Source of the DNA: Felis catus | Taxonomy: Eukaryota | Length of the DNA: 64,000 nt | Assembly: GCF_018350175.1 (NCBI RefSeq) | Contig: NC_058368.1 | Coordinates: forward strand, 19,470,001-19,534,000 | Reading direction: 5' to 3' | Shown: piece by piece, positions 20,512 to 58,769 of the stretch | Layout of the letters: every line of letters starts with the position of its first letter | How positions within the stretch are numbered: position 1 is the stretch's first letter | Position numbers and translations under genes: made by a program | Notes under the pieces: model-generated | What the model saw: only the letters and a program-made list of their open reading frames with translations | Databases searched by the model: none | What the model was told of the DNA's origin: nothing

Positions 20512-20940
<429 letters not shown>

Positions 20941-21399: not shown

Positions 21400-22280
21400 T
21401 GTCCACTGGACACACCCAACTCCGTGTCCTGCAGATCATTCTAACTCTACCTGCTGGGAACCTGGCTCATCAACTGCCTCTCCTCTTGGGACTCTGTCTC
21501 GAGGTGACAGCCATCCACTGTTCATACATTTGCCTACACTCAAAACCCCAGGAGGTCCTCTTGGACTCTTCTCTCTCCTTCACGTAAGACGTCCAATTAA
21601 TCACCACGTCCTGTTCAATCCTGCCTCAGAATTTCCCTCGAGCGTGTTCGCCTACCGTGTTTGTACCACAGCACGTCACCCAGGTTGCCAGGGCAGCCCA
21701 ACACATCCTCCTGCCTTCCTCCCCTGGCCCTCCCTGCTCCTCACTGATCCACCCCTCCACGGCAACCACAGTGAACTTGAGGAAATAGAAAGCTTTTAAA
21801 TCCAATACTCAAAATCAGTCTATCTTTTCCCACTGGCTTCACCTGGCCCCAGCTCCCCTCTCCATCAGCGTGTTGTTCCTCCTGCGTGCTCCGGCCATAC
21901 CGAACCCTTAGTTCCCTGAGTGCACCTGCTAGTGCCCTTATGGTCCCACCTGTCACGATGCTGTTCCCTCTGCTGGATATTCTCCCATCTTTTGCAAGGC
22001 TAACTTCTAATTACTGTTCAGGTCCCAGCTTACGCATCACACCATTTCCTCGGGCAACTGTTCTCTGACCTCACAAATCTGTTAGGTGTTTCTCTTGGGT
22101 GCTTCAAATCACCCTGCACTTGCCCTGGCACAGCACTTAGCACCGTGTCCAGTAAAGTGCTGTTTAACTGGTCTGTATCACACACAGAGCTGGAAGTCTC
22201 AGAAGGGAACAACAGGTCCTGTCTCCCAGTCATTTTCCCAGCACCCGCCACGTGCCTGGCACACTGAATGCTCCAGTAAG
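21400..22280 (+). mobile_element. LINE-2 remnants in ALG11 intron 3
   Basis: Pyrimidine-rich L2-like body ending 'cacgtgcctggcacactgaatgctccagtaa'; boundaries approximate. Confidence 0.55.
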
Positions 22281-22899
22281 TCTCCGTGGGAGGAGGCACA
22301 GGGAGTCAGACCCTGTGCAGAAGGTCTGAATCAAAAAGTTCTTGCTGTATGTCTGGGCTCAGTAATGTGCGACCCACTAGGGATAGACAGGAGGGTAAGA
22401 GAAATCATAGCCTTAGCACAGGAGACTTCACTTTATGTTTTTCCATTTTCCCTGAACACCTAGCAGTGTGGACACAAAGCAGCCACTTGAGAAATAGATG
22501 TTGAACCAAATTAGACACAAGACAGCAGTTGACTTTATGCCAAATGTATGCATAACAGGAAGTCAGGATATAGAGAGCAGCTTGTGCTAGAATAAACAAG
22601 AAAGGCTAAATTAAAGGCTAAGGAGATGAAAGTCAGACACTTATAATGGGATTTGACAGAAAAAGGAGGGTAGGCCATTTCAATAATGGGTAGGGAATCA
22701 ACAGAAGAAACAACAGAATTGACATGAGGAGCCCTGTCAGCTCAGCTTTTGGTGTACATGAAAATCACCTGATGAGCTTTACTGAAATACATCTACCTGG
22801 GCCCCCCCCGGAGATTCGGATTTGGTCCTTCAGTGAGATTAGGCCAGGAATCTGTACCAGTCCAGACATAGGGTTAGGTGGGGCAGAGAAACTGGTAGG

Positions 22900-23125: not shown

Positions 23126-23256
23126 TACATACTGTTATGTCCTGCGGGGTCTCAAATGAAAAAAGTTTACTTGGCAGACTGGGAGAGGAGAATTAGACCT
23201 GATGTGAACTTCTAGAGTATTATTATTTTATCAAGAGAACCCAAATGTACATCTCA

Positions 23257-24264
<1,008 letters not shown>

Positions 24265-33599: not shown

Positions 33600-34042
33600 T
33601 ATGTAAGTGACATATGTTAACAGCGACCATTTTGGTGAGTGAAAGAGGGGAAACTAAGACGTGACAAGAGCCAGTTTATTCTTTACCAAGAAGAGACACG
33701 ACAGTTTGGAAAATGATCCATGGCTCAATTATAAAGGAAAACGAGAAATGAATATGGATAATTTATAACAGAATAGTTGGAGTGCGAACAAAAAAGAAAA
33801 AGGAAGGGAAACTGCACCCTTCAGCCAGAAGTGGGGCAGGCGAAGAAAACGCGGTTAACTGAGTCTTTAACCCAGTCAGCTTCAGTCTAATTAAAAGACT
33901 CCGAAGTGAGAACAGCGCTATCCTTGAGGCCTAGATTCGTGACTAGAAGATCCCCCTTCCCCGCAAACTTCAGTTGCCCTGGGCGGACAAGAACCACCGC
34001 GAAACAGAAAACGCCTGCGAGCCCACACCACCAGCTCCTCAC

Positions 34043-34086
34043 CTCAGTAACTCGCACAAGCACCAACCCACTTTGGTGGTCGCCAT
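34043..34086 (-). CDS. ALG11: ALG11 exon 1 coding part
   Basis: AAG ATG GCG Kozak context; encodes MATTKVGWCLCELL(R); donor AG|GTGAG; 44 nt. The four exons total 1479 nt = 492 aa + stop. Confidence 0.95.
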
Positions 34087-35071
34087 CTTCCCTCGACCCC
34101 CGAACTCAGGAAGCGCTTCGCTGTTCCTCTTCTCTATTGGCTCCAGAGGAAGCGGGCGGTGTTCTCTCCGCCCCCATGGGGCAGATTTCGCGTTTCAATT
34201 GGCTGCTGGTAGTAGCTTCCCACGGCCTTCCAGTCAATAGAATCTCCCGGGGAGGAGACAAGTTTTCGGCGTGGCGCACAAGGGTCCCGCCCCCCCAGCG
34301 GGCGGGGCCGTAGTGGGAGTAGGGCTGGAGAGGGCGTGGCCTGTGATAGACAGCCGGGCACCCGCCCTCGGCCCCCTCCCCCACTGGAAGCCCCCAGCCC
34401 GGGGCCCGCCGGCCGTTGAGACCAATGGGAGGCCCTTGCGCATCTAGGATCGATTTCCCAGGTGCGGAGTTCACTCCCGCGGCAGCTGCGGCATTTGGGA
34501 CCCGCGACGCCCCGGAGCGAAGCGCGGAGCTGAGAGGCAGCTGTGCGGAGCGGACCCGAAGAAGGTGCCCGCCACGCCGCACCTCTCCGCCGGCGGTTGG
34601 CGAGCCCTGGGATCTGCATCTCCGGCTCGGCTCTGCGCCGCTCGCCCGCCCTCTTGTCCTTCACACGCCGGGGGCCTAAGACCGAGTCCGCAGCGTACCG
34701 GCCCGAGGTAGCGGAGACTTGGGAGGGAGGACCGGTCCCCGCCAGGGGCACGGGCAGGGCCGCCTCCGGGTGTGAATGAGGGTCCGAGGCCAACCCTCCG
34801 CCCTTGAGCTTATCCCCGCCCCCCCCCACCCCCCCAAGGGCCAGGGCGCCAGGGCGCGCGACTTTGAATTAGCCGGTGGGGCGAGGGCTGCTGATCCCCT
34901 GGTCTGAAATGCAGGAGACCTTTTCCAGACCCTTCCCCGGGTGAGAGAGCCGAACCGCAGAGATGCCACCCACAGCCCGCTCCCGGGGTTTTAACACCGC
35001 ACTTCTCCACTAACCAGGTGACCTGTGGGCTCTGGGCGGATCACAGAAGAAATTGGTTCCTCCGGAGGAGG

Positions 35072-35122
35072 ATGCTTGAGCAGGAGAGGCAGCTTACTGC
35101 TAGAGTAGGGGCCGGTTGGAAA
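35072..35122 (+). CDS. ATP7B: ATP7B canonical first coding exon (copper-transporting P1B-type ATPase, Wilson disease protein); exon 2 onward lies outside the window
   Basis: Encodes MLEQERQLTARVGAGWK, then consensus donor AAA|GTAAGT (51 nt, phase 0). Compare human MPEQERQITAREGASRK; head-to-head with ALG11 as known. Confidence 0.93.
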
Positions 35123-54831: not shown

Positions 54832-55057
54832 GGGGCACACTTGGGTGGCTTAGTGGGTTATGTGTCCTACTCTTGATTTCGGCTCAAATCCTGATGTCAT
54901 AGTACGTGGGATCAAGCTCAGAGGTAGGTTCTGTGCTGGCAGCACGGAGCTTGCTTGGGATTCTCTCTCCTCTCCCTGCCCTTCTCCCCACTCACCTGTG
55001 CTGTCTAGCGCTCTCTCTCTCTCTCTCTCTCAAAATAAATAAACATTAAAAAAAAAA
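54832..55057 (+). mobile_element. CanSINE
   Basis: SINEC body, (CT)n, A-tail; TSD about atctggtg(c/t)tta. Confidence 0.88.
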
Positions 55058-55968
55058 GATCTGGTGTTTAAAGAGATCAGATTAGGTTATCTGGAGAACG
55101 CACTTACTATGCCCAATAAAGGAAATGTGGGGGGGTCGGCAGGCACACCCAGACCCTGGGTCTGGACCTTATCGGGAAGACCAGAGATGAGCAAGATTTG
55201 AGTGATCGCAAGAAAGCAGGGGCAGATATACCGGACTCCTCTGTGCCGGCGGCCCCTACATGGAATTGGGGCCCTAGCATCACACATGCCATTCCTTTGT
55301 TGTCACTGATTTGAATGGCACTTCTTAGAACTGCAGGCAGATTCTTTTTTGACTGAGCACAAGGAGGATAAGAAGCCAAGGGAGACACATTTTGGAGCTG
55401 GCTGCCTGGAGCGTTTTTCAGAAGTGGGAGCAAACACATAGTCACATCCCCACAGGGTAAATAAGAGGCAGAAGAGGAACCGGGTCTCCTAGGACGTGTG
55501 GCTCATGGGCCAGTGGTGAGGCCGCCTTCCCTCAGGCAGAACAGGGCTCTTGCTCAGCATTTCTGGGGGCAGCAGTGGCAGTTTAACGGGGAGGAAGGGT
55601 CACTGTAGGTAACTCCTTAGGAGGCAGAATCCTCAGGGAGCTTGAGCAGAAGTGGATGTGTTCTAAATGCCCTCAGGGACCTGCCACTGTGACCTCACCC
55701 TCCCCTGCCAGGGGCATGTTCATTCCGCGAGAGGAATGTTTTTACCAACTCAATTCAGTGGGCAGCGTGGACACTTTACACACACTGGCAGGGGGCGGCG
55801 TTGCCAGGATTAGTGGCTGGCGGAGCCTTTCCTTCCCGGGGGATGAGGTTGCCTCCTTCCCGGTCTGTGAGCCGGTGGGGGTGGGAAGGGAGACAGCGCT
55901 GCCCAGCCAAGTGGGAGGCTGCCTGGATTACCACACTGCCCCCTTCTCTTAATCCTCCTGTGGACAGC

Positions 55969-55990
55969 GGGGGGGGGGGGGGGGGGGGGG
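55969..55990 (+). repeat. G22 homopolymer
   Basis: 22 consecutive G. Confidence 0.9.
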
Positions 55991-56220
55991 TAGCTGGAGA
56001 AGCCTGAATTGTGGGTTCGTTCCTGGCTGTCCTCCCCCGTACAAAAAAGGATAACAAGGATGAGCCTTTGTTATCCAGTGCGTTTTTGCAGTCAGTTCTT
56101 ACTGAAGCCAAGCCAAGTTGGTCCAAGGGAAAACAAAGCTGCAGGAAACATGGACCTTTCTTACACCTTCTTGAAAATGCAAGTCATGTTGCCTAGGAAA
56201 TACTCTGTCCCCTAGCGTGC

Positions 56221-56561
56221 TGCACACCGCCAGCATTGGAGCTATGGAAGAGGCCGCTGAAGTTATTCCAAGAAAGCGTTGGAAGTTTGGTAATGAAAGG
56301 AAGTGTCATCTCTCCCCTGCCTCGAGGCTGGGTTTCTGGGAGTGCACACGGCCAAAAGGAAACTGTGCTCAGCTTTGGGAGGTGACTGTGTGCCGGGCTC
56401 CTGCACACGCTGGCCGGGTGTCCTGGCACGGCTGGGTGAGGGCACGCGTGGGGCCGTGTGCAGAGATTCCCAGGGCCGAAAGCAGTGTGGTGAGTGAGAG
56501 GGTGCCAATTGGTTGGAAGGATGTAGGTAAACAAGAGTAAATATACATACAGCAGTGTGCA
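56221..56561. promoter_or_regulatory. Cluster of metal response elements (MTF1 sites) with FOXA and CCAAT motifs; putative internal ATP7B promoter
   Basis: TGCRCNC cores at 56221 (+), 56340-56346 (-), 56343 (+, TGCACACGGCCA), 56402 (+), 56456-56462 (-, within perfect TGCACACGGCCC at 56451-56462) and 56555-56561 (-). CCAATTGG at 56505; GTAAACA at 56527; GTAAATA at 56537. Confidence 0.75.
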
Positions 56562-56783
56562 GCCTGCCCAAGTTCAGAAGCTGGCTGCTAGACTTGGCCG
56601 GCAGCCTCTCCCCCGCTGGCTCCAGAGCAGAGGGGAATCTGCAGGACTGACGGATCACAGGTGCCTCCCCCTGCTAGTTAGGAGGACACTTTTAAAGCTT
56701 TTCCTTCTCACTCGACCAGGTAGTCTGGTGAGGGTGAACAGCTTGCTTGAATGGTGGGTAAAGGTGTGACCGCGGACACAGCG

Positions 56784-56999
56784 ATGGAGAAAGCCGGGGG
56801 TGACATGCCCGGGAGCCCTGAGCCGTCCTTCCTGGCGACTCTGGGTGACCCACAGGTGACCCTCGTGTCCGTCCACAAGCGGTGGTCCTTCAGGAGGAAT
56901 CCTGGGACCGGGGGCTCCACCAGGCCAGTGACTTCGGAGGAGGAAGGAGAGTTTTCCCAGAAGGTTTTGAATGGAACACGGGGAATCCGTTCCAATCAG
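56784..56999 (+). CDS. ATP7B: ATP7B alternative first coding exon (72-aa N-terminus; possible upstream in-frame ATG at 56751)
   Basis: Strong Kozak gcgATGG; open 72 codons [72 protein letters not shown]; donor CAG|GTCAGT in phase 0 like canonical exon 1; in-frame TGA at 56748. Resembles the recalled long N-terminal isoform of sheep ATP7B. Confidence 0.8.
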
Positions 57000-58769
57000 G
57001 TCAGTGCAATTGCAGAAGGGCTAAAAAGCCGAGAGGGAGTTGGACGGGCTTTCAGATGGAGGTTCCTCCCTTGTCTTACGAATGGGGGATCAGGGAAGCG
57101 CGGCCGGGGTGGGGAGCCAGAGTTGAGGTGATTCTCCAGACTTTATCCAGAGATAAAGTCCATCATGGTAACCGTTGGGTTTCTCGCTTGTTTTTAGGAT
57201 ATTTTGTAAGCCTCTGTGGGGCAAAAGTTTTCCGGAAGGCAGATCAGACAAAAATGGAGTTTTGCCCTGTTTTTGCTTTTTAAAACGTGTACCTTATTTT
57301 GTTAATCTCCGTATTTCGACTAAATAAACATTTTGAATGTGTTGCTGCAAAACGAAGCTGTTCTTCTTAAGCAAATGAACATTTTGTTAACCCAGAGGTC
57401 AGGTCATGTTCAAAAGTAGGGCAGTGTAACGTTTTATAAGAGCCTTGTAGTAACATTTCCGGGTGGGACTGGTGGTTTGTGTGGGGTCTTTTTCATTGAT
57501 CAGGGCAGATGAAAAAATACCAGTTAGCAACAAAGGAAAGTTTTTGAAGTCCTTTGACCCTTTAAGAGTTATGTTTGTTTCTCCTGGGTTTTATTGTTTA
57601 AAAAGTCCCCACATTTGCTAAAGGAAATTTTGTGAAAAGAGATTTTTGAAATGTACTATGCAAGAGATTTACATCTGTTGAAGGAAATTTCTGAATGCCC
57701 TTATGCAGTGCACGGTTAACTTTATATTTTTAGCTGAGTGTCTAAGACAGAAATATTAGATTGGGGTGGGAAGGCTTAACATTGCTTTAAAATGTTCAGA
57801 ATACTACTTCACAAAATCCAGCCTATGTCTGAGATATTTGAATGTGAAATATCCTAATTTTTAAATGGCCATTACTAATCTCATGTAACTAGGGGAGCAA
57901 CCTGAACCTGGCTGGGGGAGCCTGTCTGAAAGGAGGACCCAAGTAGAGGCCCACGTCGAGGCTGTGGTCCTGGGGATCTGGTGCAGATCTGGGCTCTGCC
58001 GTTGTGGGTCTGGGGGACCTGGCAGGTGAGGCTCGGGCTCCTCCAGCTCCAAATGCCCCACTGCAAAGTGGAAGTAATAAATGCCACCTCACGGGATTGT
58101 GAAAGCACTTTGTGGAGTACTACGGAAATGCAAAATGGTATCGTTTCTGCCAAAATTATGATTTTCAGTAGAATTCCCAACTCAAGATGTGTTTGGTGCC
58201 CTCTGAATGTCTGGTAGAACTGTGTCAGCCAGTTAATCTGTCGGAGCACAGTTCTAGCTATTTTTTTCTAGAGCTCTGATTACACACGTAACATGTGCTC
58301 ATTATACAAGACAAATTTTGGATGAGGCAGGGGGAATAGAGAAAAGTATTAGGAAGAAAATGTAAGCAACCGTATGCCTTAGCCATATATGTGTACATGT
58401 ATCTATTTATTTATTTACAAACAGAGGATCAGGCCATGCATAGTATTACATACCTTACATTTTTTACTTAATATTTTGTGGACATACACCGACACACACA
58501 TGATGTATATTCATCTATATTTATATACACATCTGTATCATCAGGTTTAATTGCAGTCCTGCTTTTAAATTTGGGATTACTTTTAGAAAGAATCTAACTA
58601 TTCTCAAATGGGGGAAATTTGTAGTAGCTGGTTTAAGATGAGAAGAACCAAGCTAAAAGTCATTTGTAATTGAGTATTTGTTCATTGTCAACAGTGTATT
58701 TACTCAAAGTCTATTATAATCAAACTTTGGATCTACTTGAGAGTTAACTTGTTTAGTACTTAGTATGTC

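What the first reader, a model, noticed from the sequence alone, without database searches (positions are those of the whole stretch)
56751..57005. Intact alternative first coding exon giving ATP7B a 72-aa N-terminus
Seen in the sequence: strong Kozak ATG at 56784 and 72 open codons ending at donor CAG|GTCAGT in phase 0. That is the same phase as canonical exon 1 (AAA|GTAAGT), so either exon could splice in frame to exon 2. An in-frame TGA at 56748 favours a first exon over a cassette. Recall, unverified: sheep ATP7B has a long isoform beginning [36 protein letters not shown]...[21 protein letters not shown] (about 79 aa); the felid peptide is the same apart from substitutions and an about 7-aa deletion. 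If so, the exon is old and conserved rather than a ruminant oddity. The peptide has no Cys, so it adds no CXXC copper site. It carries a basic-Ser motif (KRWS) and an acidic cluster (TSEEEGEF) that could alter phosphorylation or trafficking (inference). The exon would be missed by screening based on the canonical gene model in feline copper hepatopathy.
Basis: partly seen in the sequence, partly recalled or inferred. Interest (0 to 1): 0.8.

Follow-up and report, generated by a model that had tools for sequence, protein, structure and literature searches.

The report
Known alternative first exon of ATP7B
This is a real, intact alternative first coding exon of the copper pump gene ATP7B, but it is ordinary: it is conserved across mammals, already annotated in the domestic cat, and already used as "exon 1" in a published feline mutation screen.

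Summary
ATG 56784 (G at -3, G at +4) opens 72 codons that end at the donor CAG|GTCAGT (56999|57000), and an in-frame TGA sits at 56748. Canonical coding exon 1 (35072-35122) also ends in phase 0. Exon 2 begins with a whole codon about 10.3 kb downstream, outside the window.

The exon is not new. RefSeq XP_023106933.2 (Felis catus ATP7B isoform X9) starts with exactly these 83 residues. In all, 83 database proteins carry the peptide, always at the N-terminus. They range from marsupials and Afrotheria to monkeys, rodents, bats, ruminants and carnivores. Three unnamed contigs, too short to be genomic, join the exon to exon 2.

The "exon 1" primers of the published cat ATP7B screen (PMC6430902) flank this exon exactly, so the claim that screening would miss it is wrong. 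That screen lists no amplicon for the canonical exon 1.

Still open: the transcription start, which ATG is used, how much each first exon is used in cat liver, and what the conserved core does. The read-laying step failed, so there is no RNA evidence from this species.

Novelty: already known. Interest: low.

The parts
56784..56999 (+). Alternative first coding exon of ATP7B, counted from the conserved ATG: 72 codons, ending in phase 0
   Evidence: Searches give the sequence and translation. Searches give E about 1e-37 to 1e-33 against ATP7B long isoforms. The Met-Glu start is the conserved one in most of the 83 proteins.
56751..56783 (+). In-frame 11-codon upstream extension ([11 protein letters not shown]) from a second ATG with a weaker context. 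RefSeq felid models, including Felis catus X9, use this as the start.
   Evidence: In one search, P0087 begins with the window's exact 83 residues. Searches show the extension in felids, seals and mustelids, but not in ruminants, bats or marsupials.
56748..56750 (+). In-frame TGA directly before ATG 56751. It closes the frame to anything spliced in from upstream.
57000..57005 (+). 5' splice site GTCAGT after CAG
   Evidence: The junction ...SNQ|ILSK... appears in the full-length proteins.
57000..57045 (+). Conserved intron stretch just past the donor. Read in frame it gives [15 protein letters not shown].
   Evidence: over 9 unspliced ORFs from other mammals. Identity is 0.40-0.80 over the first 15 codons past the donor and 0.19-0.52 over the next 27.
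56698..56719 (+). Pyrimidine-rich tract ending in CAG. It looks like an acceptor, but use is unproven.
   Evidence: read by eye and not scored. It is the basis of the rival reading that this is an internal exon.
35072..35122 (+). Canonical ATP7B coding exon 1: 17 codons, AAA|GTAAGT, phase 0, at the edge of the CpG island shared with ALG11
   Evidence: Panthera pardus P0088 residues 1-18 match here.

Best explanation
[quoted passage not shown] It lies in intron 1, 21.6 kb downstream of the canonical 17-codon exon 1 and 10.3 kb upstream of exon 2. Transcripts that carry it splice its phase-0 donor (56999|57000) to the exon 2 acceptor. The usual 17-residue N-terminus is then replaced by a 72-residue one (ATG 56784) or an 83-residue one (ATG 56751), ahead of the six metal-binding domains.

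The added peptide has no Cys in the cat and no predicted fold. It carries a 25-30 residue core, [23 protein letters not shown], conserved across therian mammals.

Shown here: the exon's anatomy, its homology, its N-terminal position, frame compatibility with exon 2, and existing annotation in the domestic cat.

Inferred: the exon has its own promoter outside any CpG island; both ATGs may be used by leaky scanning; and the core is a short linear motif that modulates regulation or trafficking rather than copper binding.
For: Exon 2 and 3' exons matched on the same contig and strand.

Homology: one search gave 47 proteins at E<=0.001 among 124 candidates. One search gave 80 proteins at E<=0.01 among 7999 scored. 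Together these are 83 distinct proteins, 72 of them 1000 aa or longer and named copper-transporting ATPase 2 where a name exists. The core motif starts at residue 10-52 in 82 of 83. The 83rd, P0083, carries a variant of the motif in the same place.

The first 83 residues of Felis catus XP_023106933.2 (P0087) are identical to the window's translation.

Three contigs are too short to be genomic and carry the exon joined to exon 2: P0040 (586 aa on 3267 nt), P0063 (717 aa on 2613 nt, 94% identical to macaque P0055) and P0079 (1530 aa on 5433 nt, 90% identical to Myodes P0080).

The published cat primers flank the exon.

CpG observed/expected is 0.41-0.61 around the exon and 0.70-0.83 at the canonical promoter.

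AlphaFold2 with 13 sequences gave mean pLDDT 61.7 and no secondary structure. Residues 11-40 scored 72-81. Pfam found no family for the peptide.
Against: There is no read-level evidence from this species. The runs were never laid.

The 83 proteins are mostly automatic gene models and ORF calls, so they were selected for having an open frame. No unbiased count of broken copies was possible. No dN/dS could be computed because no DNA from other mammals could be fetched.

Conservation is not confined to the coding part. It runs about 10 codons upstream of ATG 56784 and about 15 codons past the donor. Part of the signal could therefore be regulatory DNA.

No hominoid, Mus or Rattus name appears among the hits.

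The transcription start is unknown, and an acceptor-like tract ends at 56719.
Confidence: 0.9

Rival explanations
1. The exon is not a transcription-start exon. It is an internal exon included after canonical exon 1, from the CpG-island promoter. The canonical ATG would then open a 20-codon upstream ORF that stops at the TGA at 56729, and ribosomes would start again at 56751 or 56784. The protein is the same, but control would be by splicing and not by a second promoter.
For: A pyrimidine tract ending in CAG lies at 56698-56719, and no CpG island surrounds the exon. Spliced at 56720, the canonical frame reads GTA GTC TGG TGA. The gene coordinates printed with the cat primers place the gene start at about window 34682, so the gene record spans both exons.
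Against: The elephant-seal model P0021 reads 24 codons upstream of the conserved Met. By orthology that passes the acceptor-like AG, assuming no indels. All 83 proteins start in this exon. The acceptor was judged by eye only, with no score and no reads.
Confidence: 0.2
2. The block is a conserved regulatory element in intron 1 whose open frame is incidental, and the long isoform in databases is a by-product of automatic ORF extension.
For: Conservation spills over both ends of the coding part. The peptide is predicted disordered and matches no Pfam family. Felid gene models do contain doubtful N-termini. Lynx rufus P0099 reads an ORF through the CpG island at 34176-34710.
Against: The frame is open in 83 of 83 proteins from marsupials to primates, and all length differences in alignment A1 are in frame. 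Three spliced transcript-like contigs exist. Sheep cDNA work reported isoforms: the title is seen in the reference lists, the content is recalled.
Confidence: 0.04

Closest known systems
Felis catus ATP7B isoform X9, RefSeq XP_023106933.2 (P0087)
   Same: Its first 83 residues are identical to the translation of window 56751-56999, followed by the exon 2 sequence ILSKHSLPARVW.
   Different: Nothing differs. It is a predicted model, and its RNA support was not seen here.
Sheep ATP7B alternate (long) N-terminal form (Lockhart and Mercer, Biochim Biophys Acta 2000; Eur J Cell Biol 2001)
   Same: Ruminant proteins start with a 79-residue peptide that aligns with the cat peptide along its whole length, at 66-72% identity.
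   Different: Carnivores lack about 7 residues in the acidic part, and felids have an extra upstream ATG. Only the titles of the two papers were seen, in reference lists. [quoted passage not shown] What the papers showed is recalled. The full text is not held.
Canonical ATP7B exon 1 (17 codons), present in the window at 35072-35122
   Same: It has the same phase-0 donor and the same downstream partner, exon 2. Felid isoforms starting MLEQERQLTARVG... exist alongside the long ones.
   Different: It lies in the CpG island shared with ALG11, is much shorter, and shows no sequence similarity to the alternative exon.
PINA, the truncated pineal and retinal ATP7B isoform
   Same: It is another ATP7B product with an alternative 5' end. 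A review passage mentions 'a truncated isoform of ATP7B' under diurnal control.
   Different: It is truncated rather than extended. That it lacks the metal-binding domains and starts far downstream is recalled, not tested here.

Membership tests
ATP7B long-isoform first coding exon (as in RefSeq Felis catus X9 and ruminant long forms) | The peptide is homologous to the N-terminus of annotated ATP7B long isoforms. | tested here: met
   Searches give E down to about 1e-38. One search shows identity over 83 of 83 residues with P0087.
ATP7B long-isoform first coding exon (as in RefSeq Felis catus X9 and ruminant long forms) | It lies on the gene's strand between canonical exon 1 and exon 2. | tested here: met
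   Exon 1 is at 35072-35122. Exon 2 is at G000:C1:19537345 onward, which corresponds to window position 67345.
ATP7B long-isoform first coding exon (as in RefSeq Felis catus X9 and ruminant long forms) | The donor phase is compatible with the exon 2 acceptor. | tested here: met
   The 72 or 83 whole codons are followed by GT. Exon 2 starts with the whole codon ATC after ttttag. The junction SNQ|ILSK appears in proteins.
ATP7B long-isoform first coding exon (as in RefSeq Felis catus X9 and ruminant long forms) | The peptide sits at the very N-terminus and is never preceded by canonical exon 1 residues. | tested here: met
   This holds for 83 of 83 proteins. TGA at 56748 closes the frame upstream.
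ATP7B long-isoform first coding exon (as in RefSeq Felis catus X9 and ruminant long forms) | Spliced RNA joins this exon to exon 2 in this species. | not testable with these tools
Spliced transcript-like contigs were seen only for other, unnamed mammals (P0040, P0063, P0079).
ATP7B long-isoform first coding exon (as in RefSeq Felis catus X9 and ruminant long forms) | The coding sequence is under purifying selection (dN/dS below 1, no frame breaks in an unbiased species set). | not testable with these tools
   No DNA of other mammals could be fetched (searches found none). Only models already selected for an open frame were available.
Transcription-start (promoter-bearing) first exon | Transcript 5' ends map just upstream of the exon. 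| not tested
   No reads were laid. Indirect hints only: the exon is not in a CpG island, and the seal model P0021 extends 24 codons upstream of the conserved Met.

The most novel reading that the evidence does not exclude
The conserved core of this N-terminus ([23 protein letters not shown], invariant or nearly so across the 13 placental sequences of alignment A1) may be a functional short linear motif, for instance a phosphorylation-dependent or partner-binding signal. It would sit just ahead of the exon 2 segment that, by recall, carries ATP7B's apical-targeting signal. In carnivores and ruminants the long form may be a major liver isoform. Copper-transport studies built on the canonical form, for which the searches here surfaced no work on this N-terminus, would then have overlooked a regulatory module.
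Probability: 0.3. Interest if true: 0.45.

Novelty: already known. Interest (0 to 1): 0.1.

Why it matters
For genome annotation it adds nothing: the exon is already in the cat's RefSeq models. There are two small practical points.

First, veterinary ATP7B residue numbering in the cat follows the long isoform from ATG 56751. G529 and T1297 fit P0011, so numbers cannot be carried over to the canonical isoform without an offset.

Second, the published cat screen lists no amplicon for the canonical 17-codon exon 1, which would lie near gene position 391.

The biological question remains open: what does a therian-wide conserved, disordered N-terminal extension do to a copper pump? It is a modest question and is testable with isoform-specific expression.

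Tried and rejected
- Read laying. There are therefore no depth, junction or start data.
- Sequencing runs. 20 rows hold all sampled words, but only 1 (X11) is on record as RNA, and none was laid. This counts as no evidence of expression.
- Metagenome scans for orthologous DNA. (profile A1) matched 122 pattern stretches and confirmed none. (P0047) matched 548 stretches and confirmed none.
- Earlier findings of this scan: none.
- Pfam on the peptide and on four neighbouring ORFs on both strands: no family. One sub-threshold PRIMA1 hit at E 0.03 was ignored.
- Rfam on 55000-58500: nothing.
- AlphaFold2 on the peptide alone: low confidence and no fold, so no fold search was made.
- Literature. The sheep paper is not held. 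Searches for 'sATP7B' (1 paper, reference list only), 'ATP7B' with 'alternative first exon' (2 unrelated papers), 'ATP7B, sheep, two forms' (8 papers, listing only, none on isoforms by title) and 'sheep ATP7B / ovine ATP7B / sheep WND / ovine WND' (0 papers) gave no text describing the long form.
- Dog numbering. Residue 1453 of P0042 is His, not Arg. Whether the dog literature (passages of PMC4728329) numbers by the long isoform is left undecided.

Full report
**What is in the sequence**

The window carries the head-to-head pair ALG11 (minus strand, with long exon-like frames at 23254-24264 and 20512-20940; the gene name comes from my recognition of the translation) and ATP7B (plus strand). 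A CpG island lies between them at about 34000-35000, with GC 0.64-0.72 and CpG observed/expected 0.70-0.83.

The canonical ATP7B coding exon 1 is 35072-35122: 17 codons (MLEQERQLTARVGAGWK) followed by AAA|GTAAGT. One search confirms it through the match of Panthera pardus P0088.

At the reported place, ATG 56784 lies in acagcgATGg and opens 72 codons ending at CAG|GTCAGT (56999|57000). TGA lies in frame at 56748-56750.

Its context is weaker (T at -3) and it gives 83 codons.

The open frame itself is unremarkable. It runs through the donor to 57131, and the window has 26 stop-to-stop frames of 130 aa or more.

**Where exon 2 is**

The window is G000:C1:19470001-19534000. A search of the same genome with a felid ATP7B protein placed exon 2 at C1:19537339-19538613, with further 3' exons matching downstream on the same strand. 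The ATP7A paralogue lies on another contig.

The acceptor reads ttttag|ATCCTGTCTAAACAT, giving ILSKH..., at L002:1506|1507. That corresponds to window position 67345. Both first exons end in phase 0 and exon 2 starts with a whole codon, so either can join it in frame. The intron from the alternative exon is about 10.3 kb.

**What it is**

A search with the 72-residue peptide among longer proteins gave 47 hits at E<=0.001 among 124 candidates. A profile of 13 diverse N-termini (alignment A1) gave 80 hits at E<=0.01 among 7999 scored. Together these are 83 distinct proteins:
- 72 are 1000 aa or longer and, where named, are called copper-transporting ATPase 2.
- 2 are 586 and 717 aa.
- 9 are short ORFs that read on into the intron.

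The peptide sits at the very N-terminus in all 83. The core motif starts at residue 10-52 in 82 of 83, and the 83rd, P0083, has a variant of the motif in the same place. None has canonical exon 1 residues ahead of it.

Named taxa include:
- felids, bears, seals, walrus, sea lion, mustelids and dog;
- ruminants, camel and whale;
- horse, bats, hedgehog, desman and pangolins;
- Old World monkeys and tree shrew;
- guinea pig, porcupine, naked mole-rat, squirrel, kangaroo rat, pocket mouse and bank vole;
- elephant shrew and golden mole;
- sugar glider and Tasmanian devil.

The exon is therefore at least therian in age. No hominoid, Mus or Rattus name appears. This is weak evidence of absence, because the search is word-seeded and clustered at 90% identity.

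**Already annotated and already used**

Cluster members of the cheetah representative include XP_023106933.2, 'copper-transporting ATPase 2 isoform X9 [Felis catus]'. Its first 83 residues equal the window's translation from 56751 letter for letter.

The supplement of the feline case report PMC6430902 lists an 'exon 1' primer pair at gene positions 22042-22061 and 22389-22408, with a 367-bp amplicon. Both primers match the window exactly, at 56723-56742 (+) and 57070-57089 (-). These are 367 bp apart and flank this exon.

That paper's variant positions G529 and T1297 fall on Gly and Thr in the full-length long isoform P0011. The claim that a screen would miss this exon is therefore contradicted.

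By the same coordinate offset, the canonical coding exon would lie near gene position 391. No listed amplicon covers it.

**Evidence for use as RNA**

I could not get reads for this species. 

Indirect evidence comes from three unnamed contigs that are too short to be genomic yet encode the exon joined to exon 2 and beyond:
- P0040: 586 aa on 3267 nt, with an N-terminus identical to Hipposideros P0043.
- P0063: 717 aa on 2613 nt, 94% identical to macaque P0055.
- P0079: 1530 aa on 5433 nt, 90% identical to bank vole P0080.

A sheep long form is in print. [quoted passage not shown] The details are recalled.

**Conservation pattern**

In alignment A1, 13 columns are invariant and 11 more are 90% conserved. 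They are concentrated in the core [23 protein letters not shown]. All length differences are in frame: dog -6, carnivores -7 in the acidic part, desman -3.

The conserved start is the Met-Glu at 56784. Upstream Met codons vary by lineage. In P0063 and guinea pig P0071 the conserved Met is replaced, and an upstream Met opens the frame.

Conservation is not confined to the coding part. In 9 unspliced ORFs from other mammals, identity to the cat is:
- 0.56-0.90 in the exon;
- 0.40-0.80 in the first 15 codons past the donor;
- 0.19-0.52 in the next 27 codons.

About 10 codons upstream of the Met are also alignable. This fits a regulated exon with conserved flanks. It also means that amino-acid conservation alone does not prove coding constraint, and dN/dS could not be computed.

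**How it most likely works**

The exon supplies an alternative translation start and N-terminus. The added peptide matches no Pfam family. AlphaFold2 with 13 sequences predicts no secondary structure (mean pLDDT 61.7, with residues 11-40 at 72-81).

I read it as a disordered extension with one conserved linear motif, placed ahead of the exon 2 segment FAFDNVGYE. By recall only, that segment is the apical-targeting and Golgi-retention signal of human ATP7B.

I infer that the exon has its own non-CpG promoter, since CpG observed/expected is 0.41-0.61. A rival reading stays open at about 0.2. In it, the exon is an internal exon spliced at the acceptor-like tract ending at 56719, and the canonical ATG becomes a 20-codon upstream ORF that stops at 56729. 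The seal model P0021 reads through the equivalent of that site, which argues against the rival.

**Verdict**

But the feature is already annotated in the domestic cat and many other mammals, was described for sheep, and is already the 'exon 1' of feline ATP7B screening.

Novelty: already known. Interest: low.

Noticed in passing
window 57000-57045: About 45 bases of intron just past the donor are nearly as conserved as the exon itself. In 9 unspliced ORFs from other mammals (carnivore-, bat-, primate- and rodent-like), the in-frame reading [15 protein letters not shown] shows 0.40-0.80 identity. This could be a splicing or transcription control element.
   Followed up: partly
window 56698-56719: A pyrimidine-rich tract ending in CAG lies 31 bases upstream of ATG 56751 and looks like a 3' splice site. 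If canonical exon 1 were joined here, its frame would stop at the TGA at 56729. It was not scored and no reads were available.
   Followed up: no
L002:598-972 (window-equivalent about 66436-66810, outside the window): A third alternative N-terminus of about 124 residues, annotated for Felis catus isoforms X1 and X7 (P0095, P0091), maps about 0.5 kb upstream of exon 2. No conservation check was made, so it may be an annotation by-product.
   Followed up: partly
window 34176-34710: The Lynx rufus model P0099 (1604 aa) takes its N-terminus from an ORF running through the ALG11/ATP7B CpG island. It is probably a 5' UTR frame extended by automatic annotation.
   Followed up: no
window 35072-35122: The primer table of the published cat ATP7B screen lists no amplicon covering the canonical 17-codon exon 1, which would lie near gene position 391. 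Variants there would not have been seen in that study.
   Followed up: partly
window 20512-20940 and 23254-24264, minus strand: Long open frames here translate to what I recognise as ALG11 mannosyltransferase exons, head to head with ATP7B across the CpG island. The name is recalled from the translation and was not searched.
   Followed up: no
proteins P0063 and P0071 (no window coordinates): In a primate-like transcript contig and in the guinea pig, the conserved start Met of this exon is replaced (Ile and Leu respectively), and an in-frame Met a few codons upstream opens the frame. The start codon is therefore mobile while the frame is kept.
   Followed up: partly
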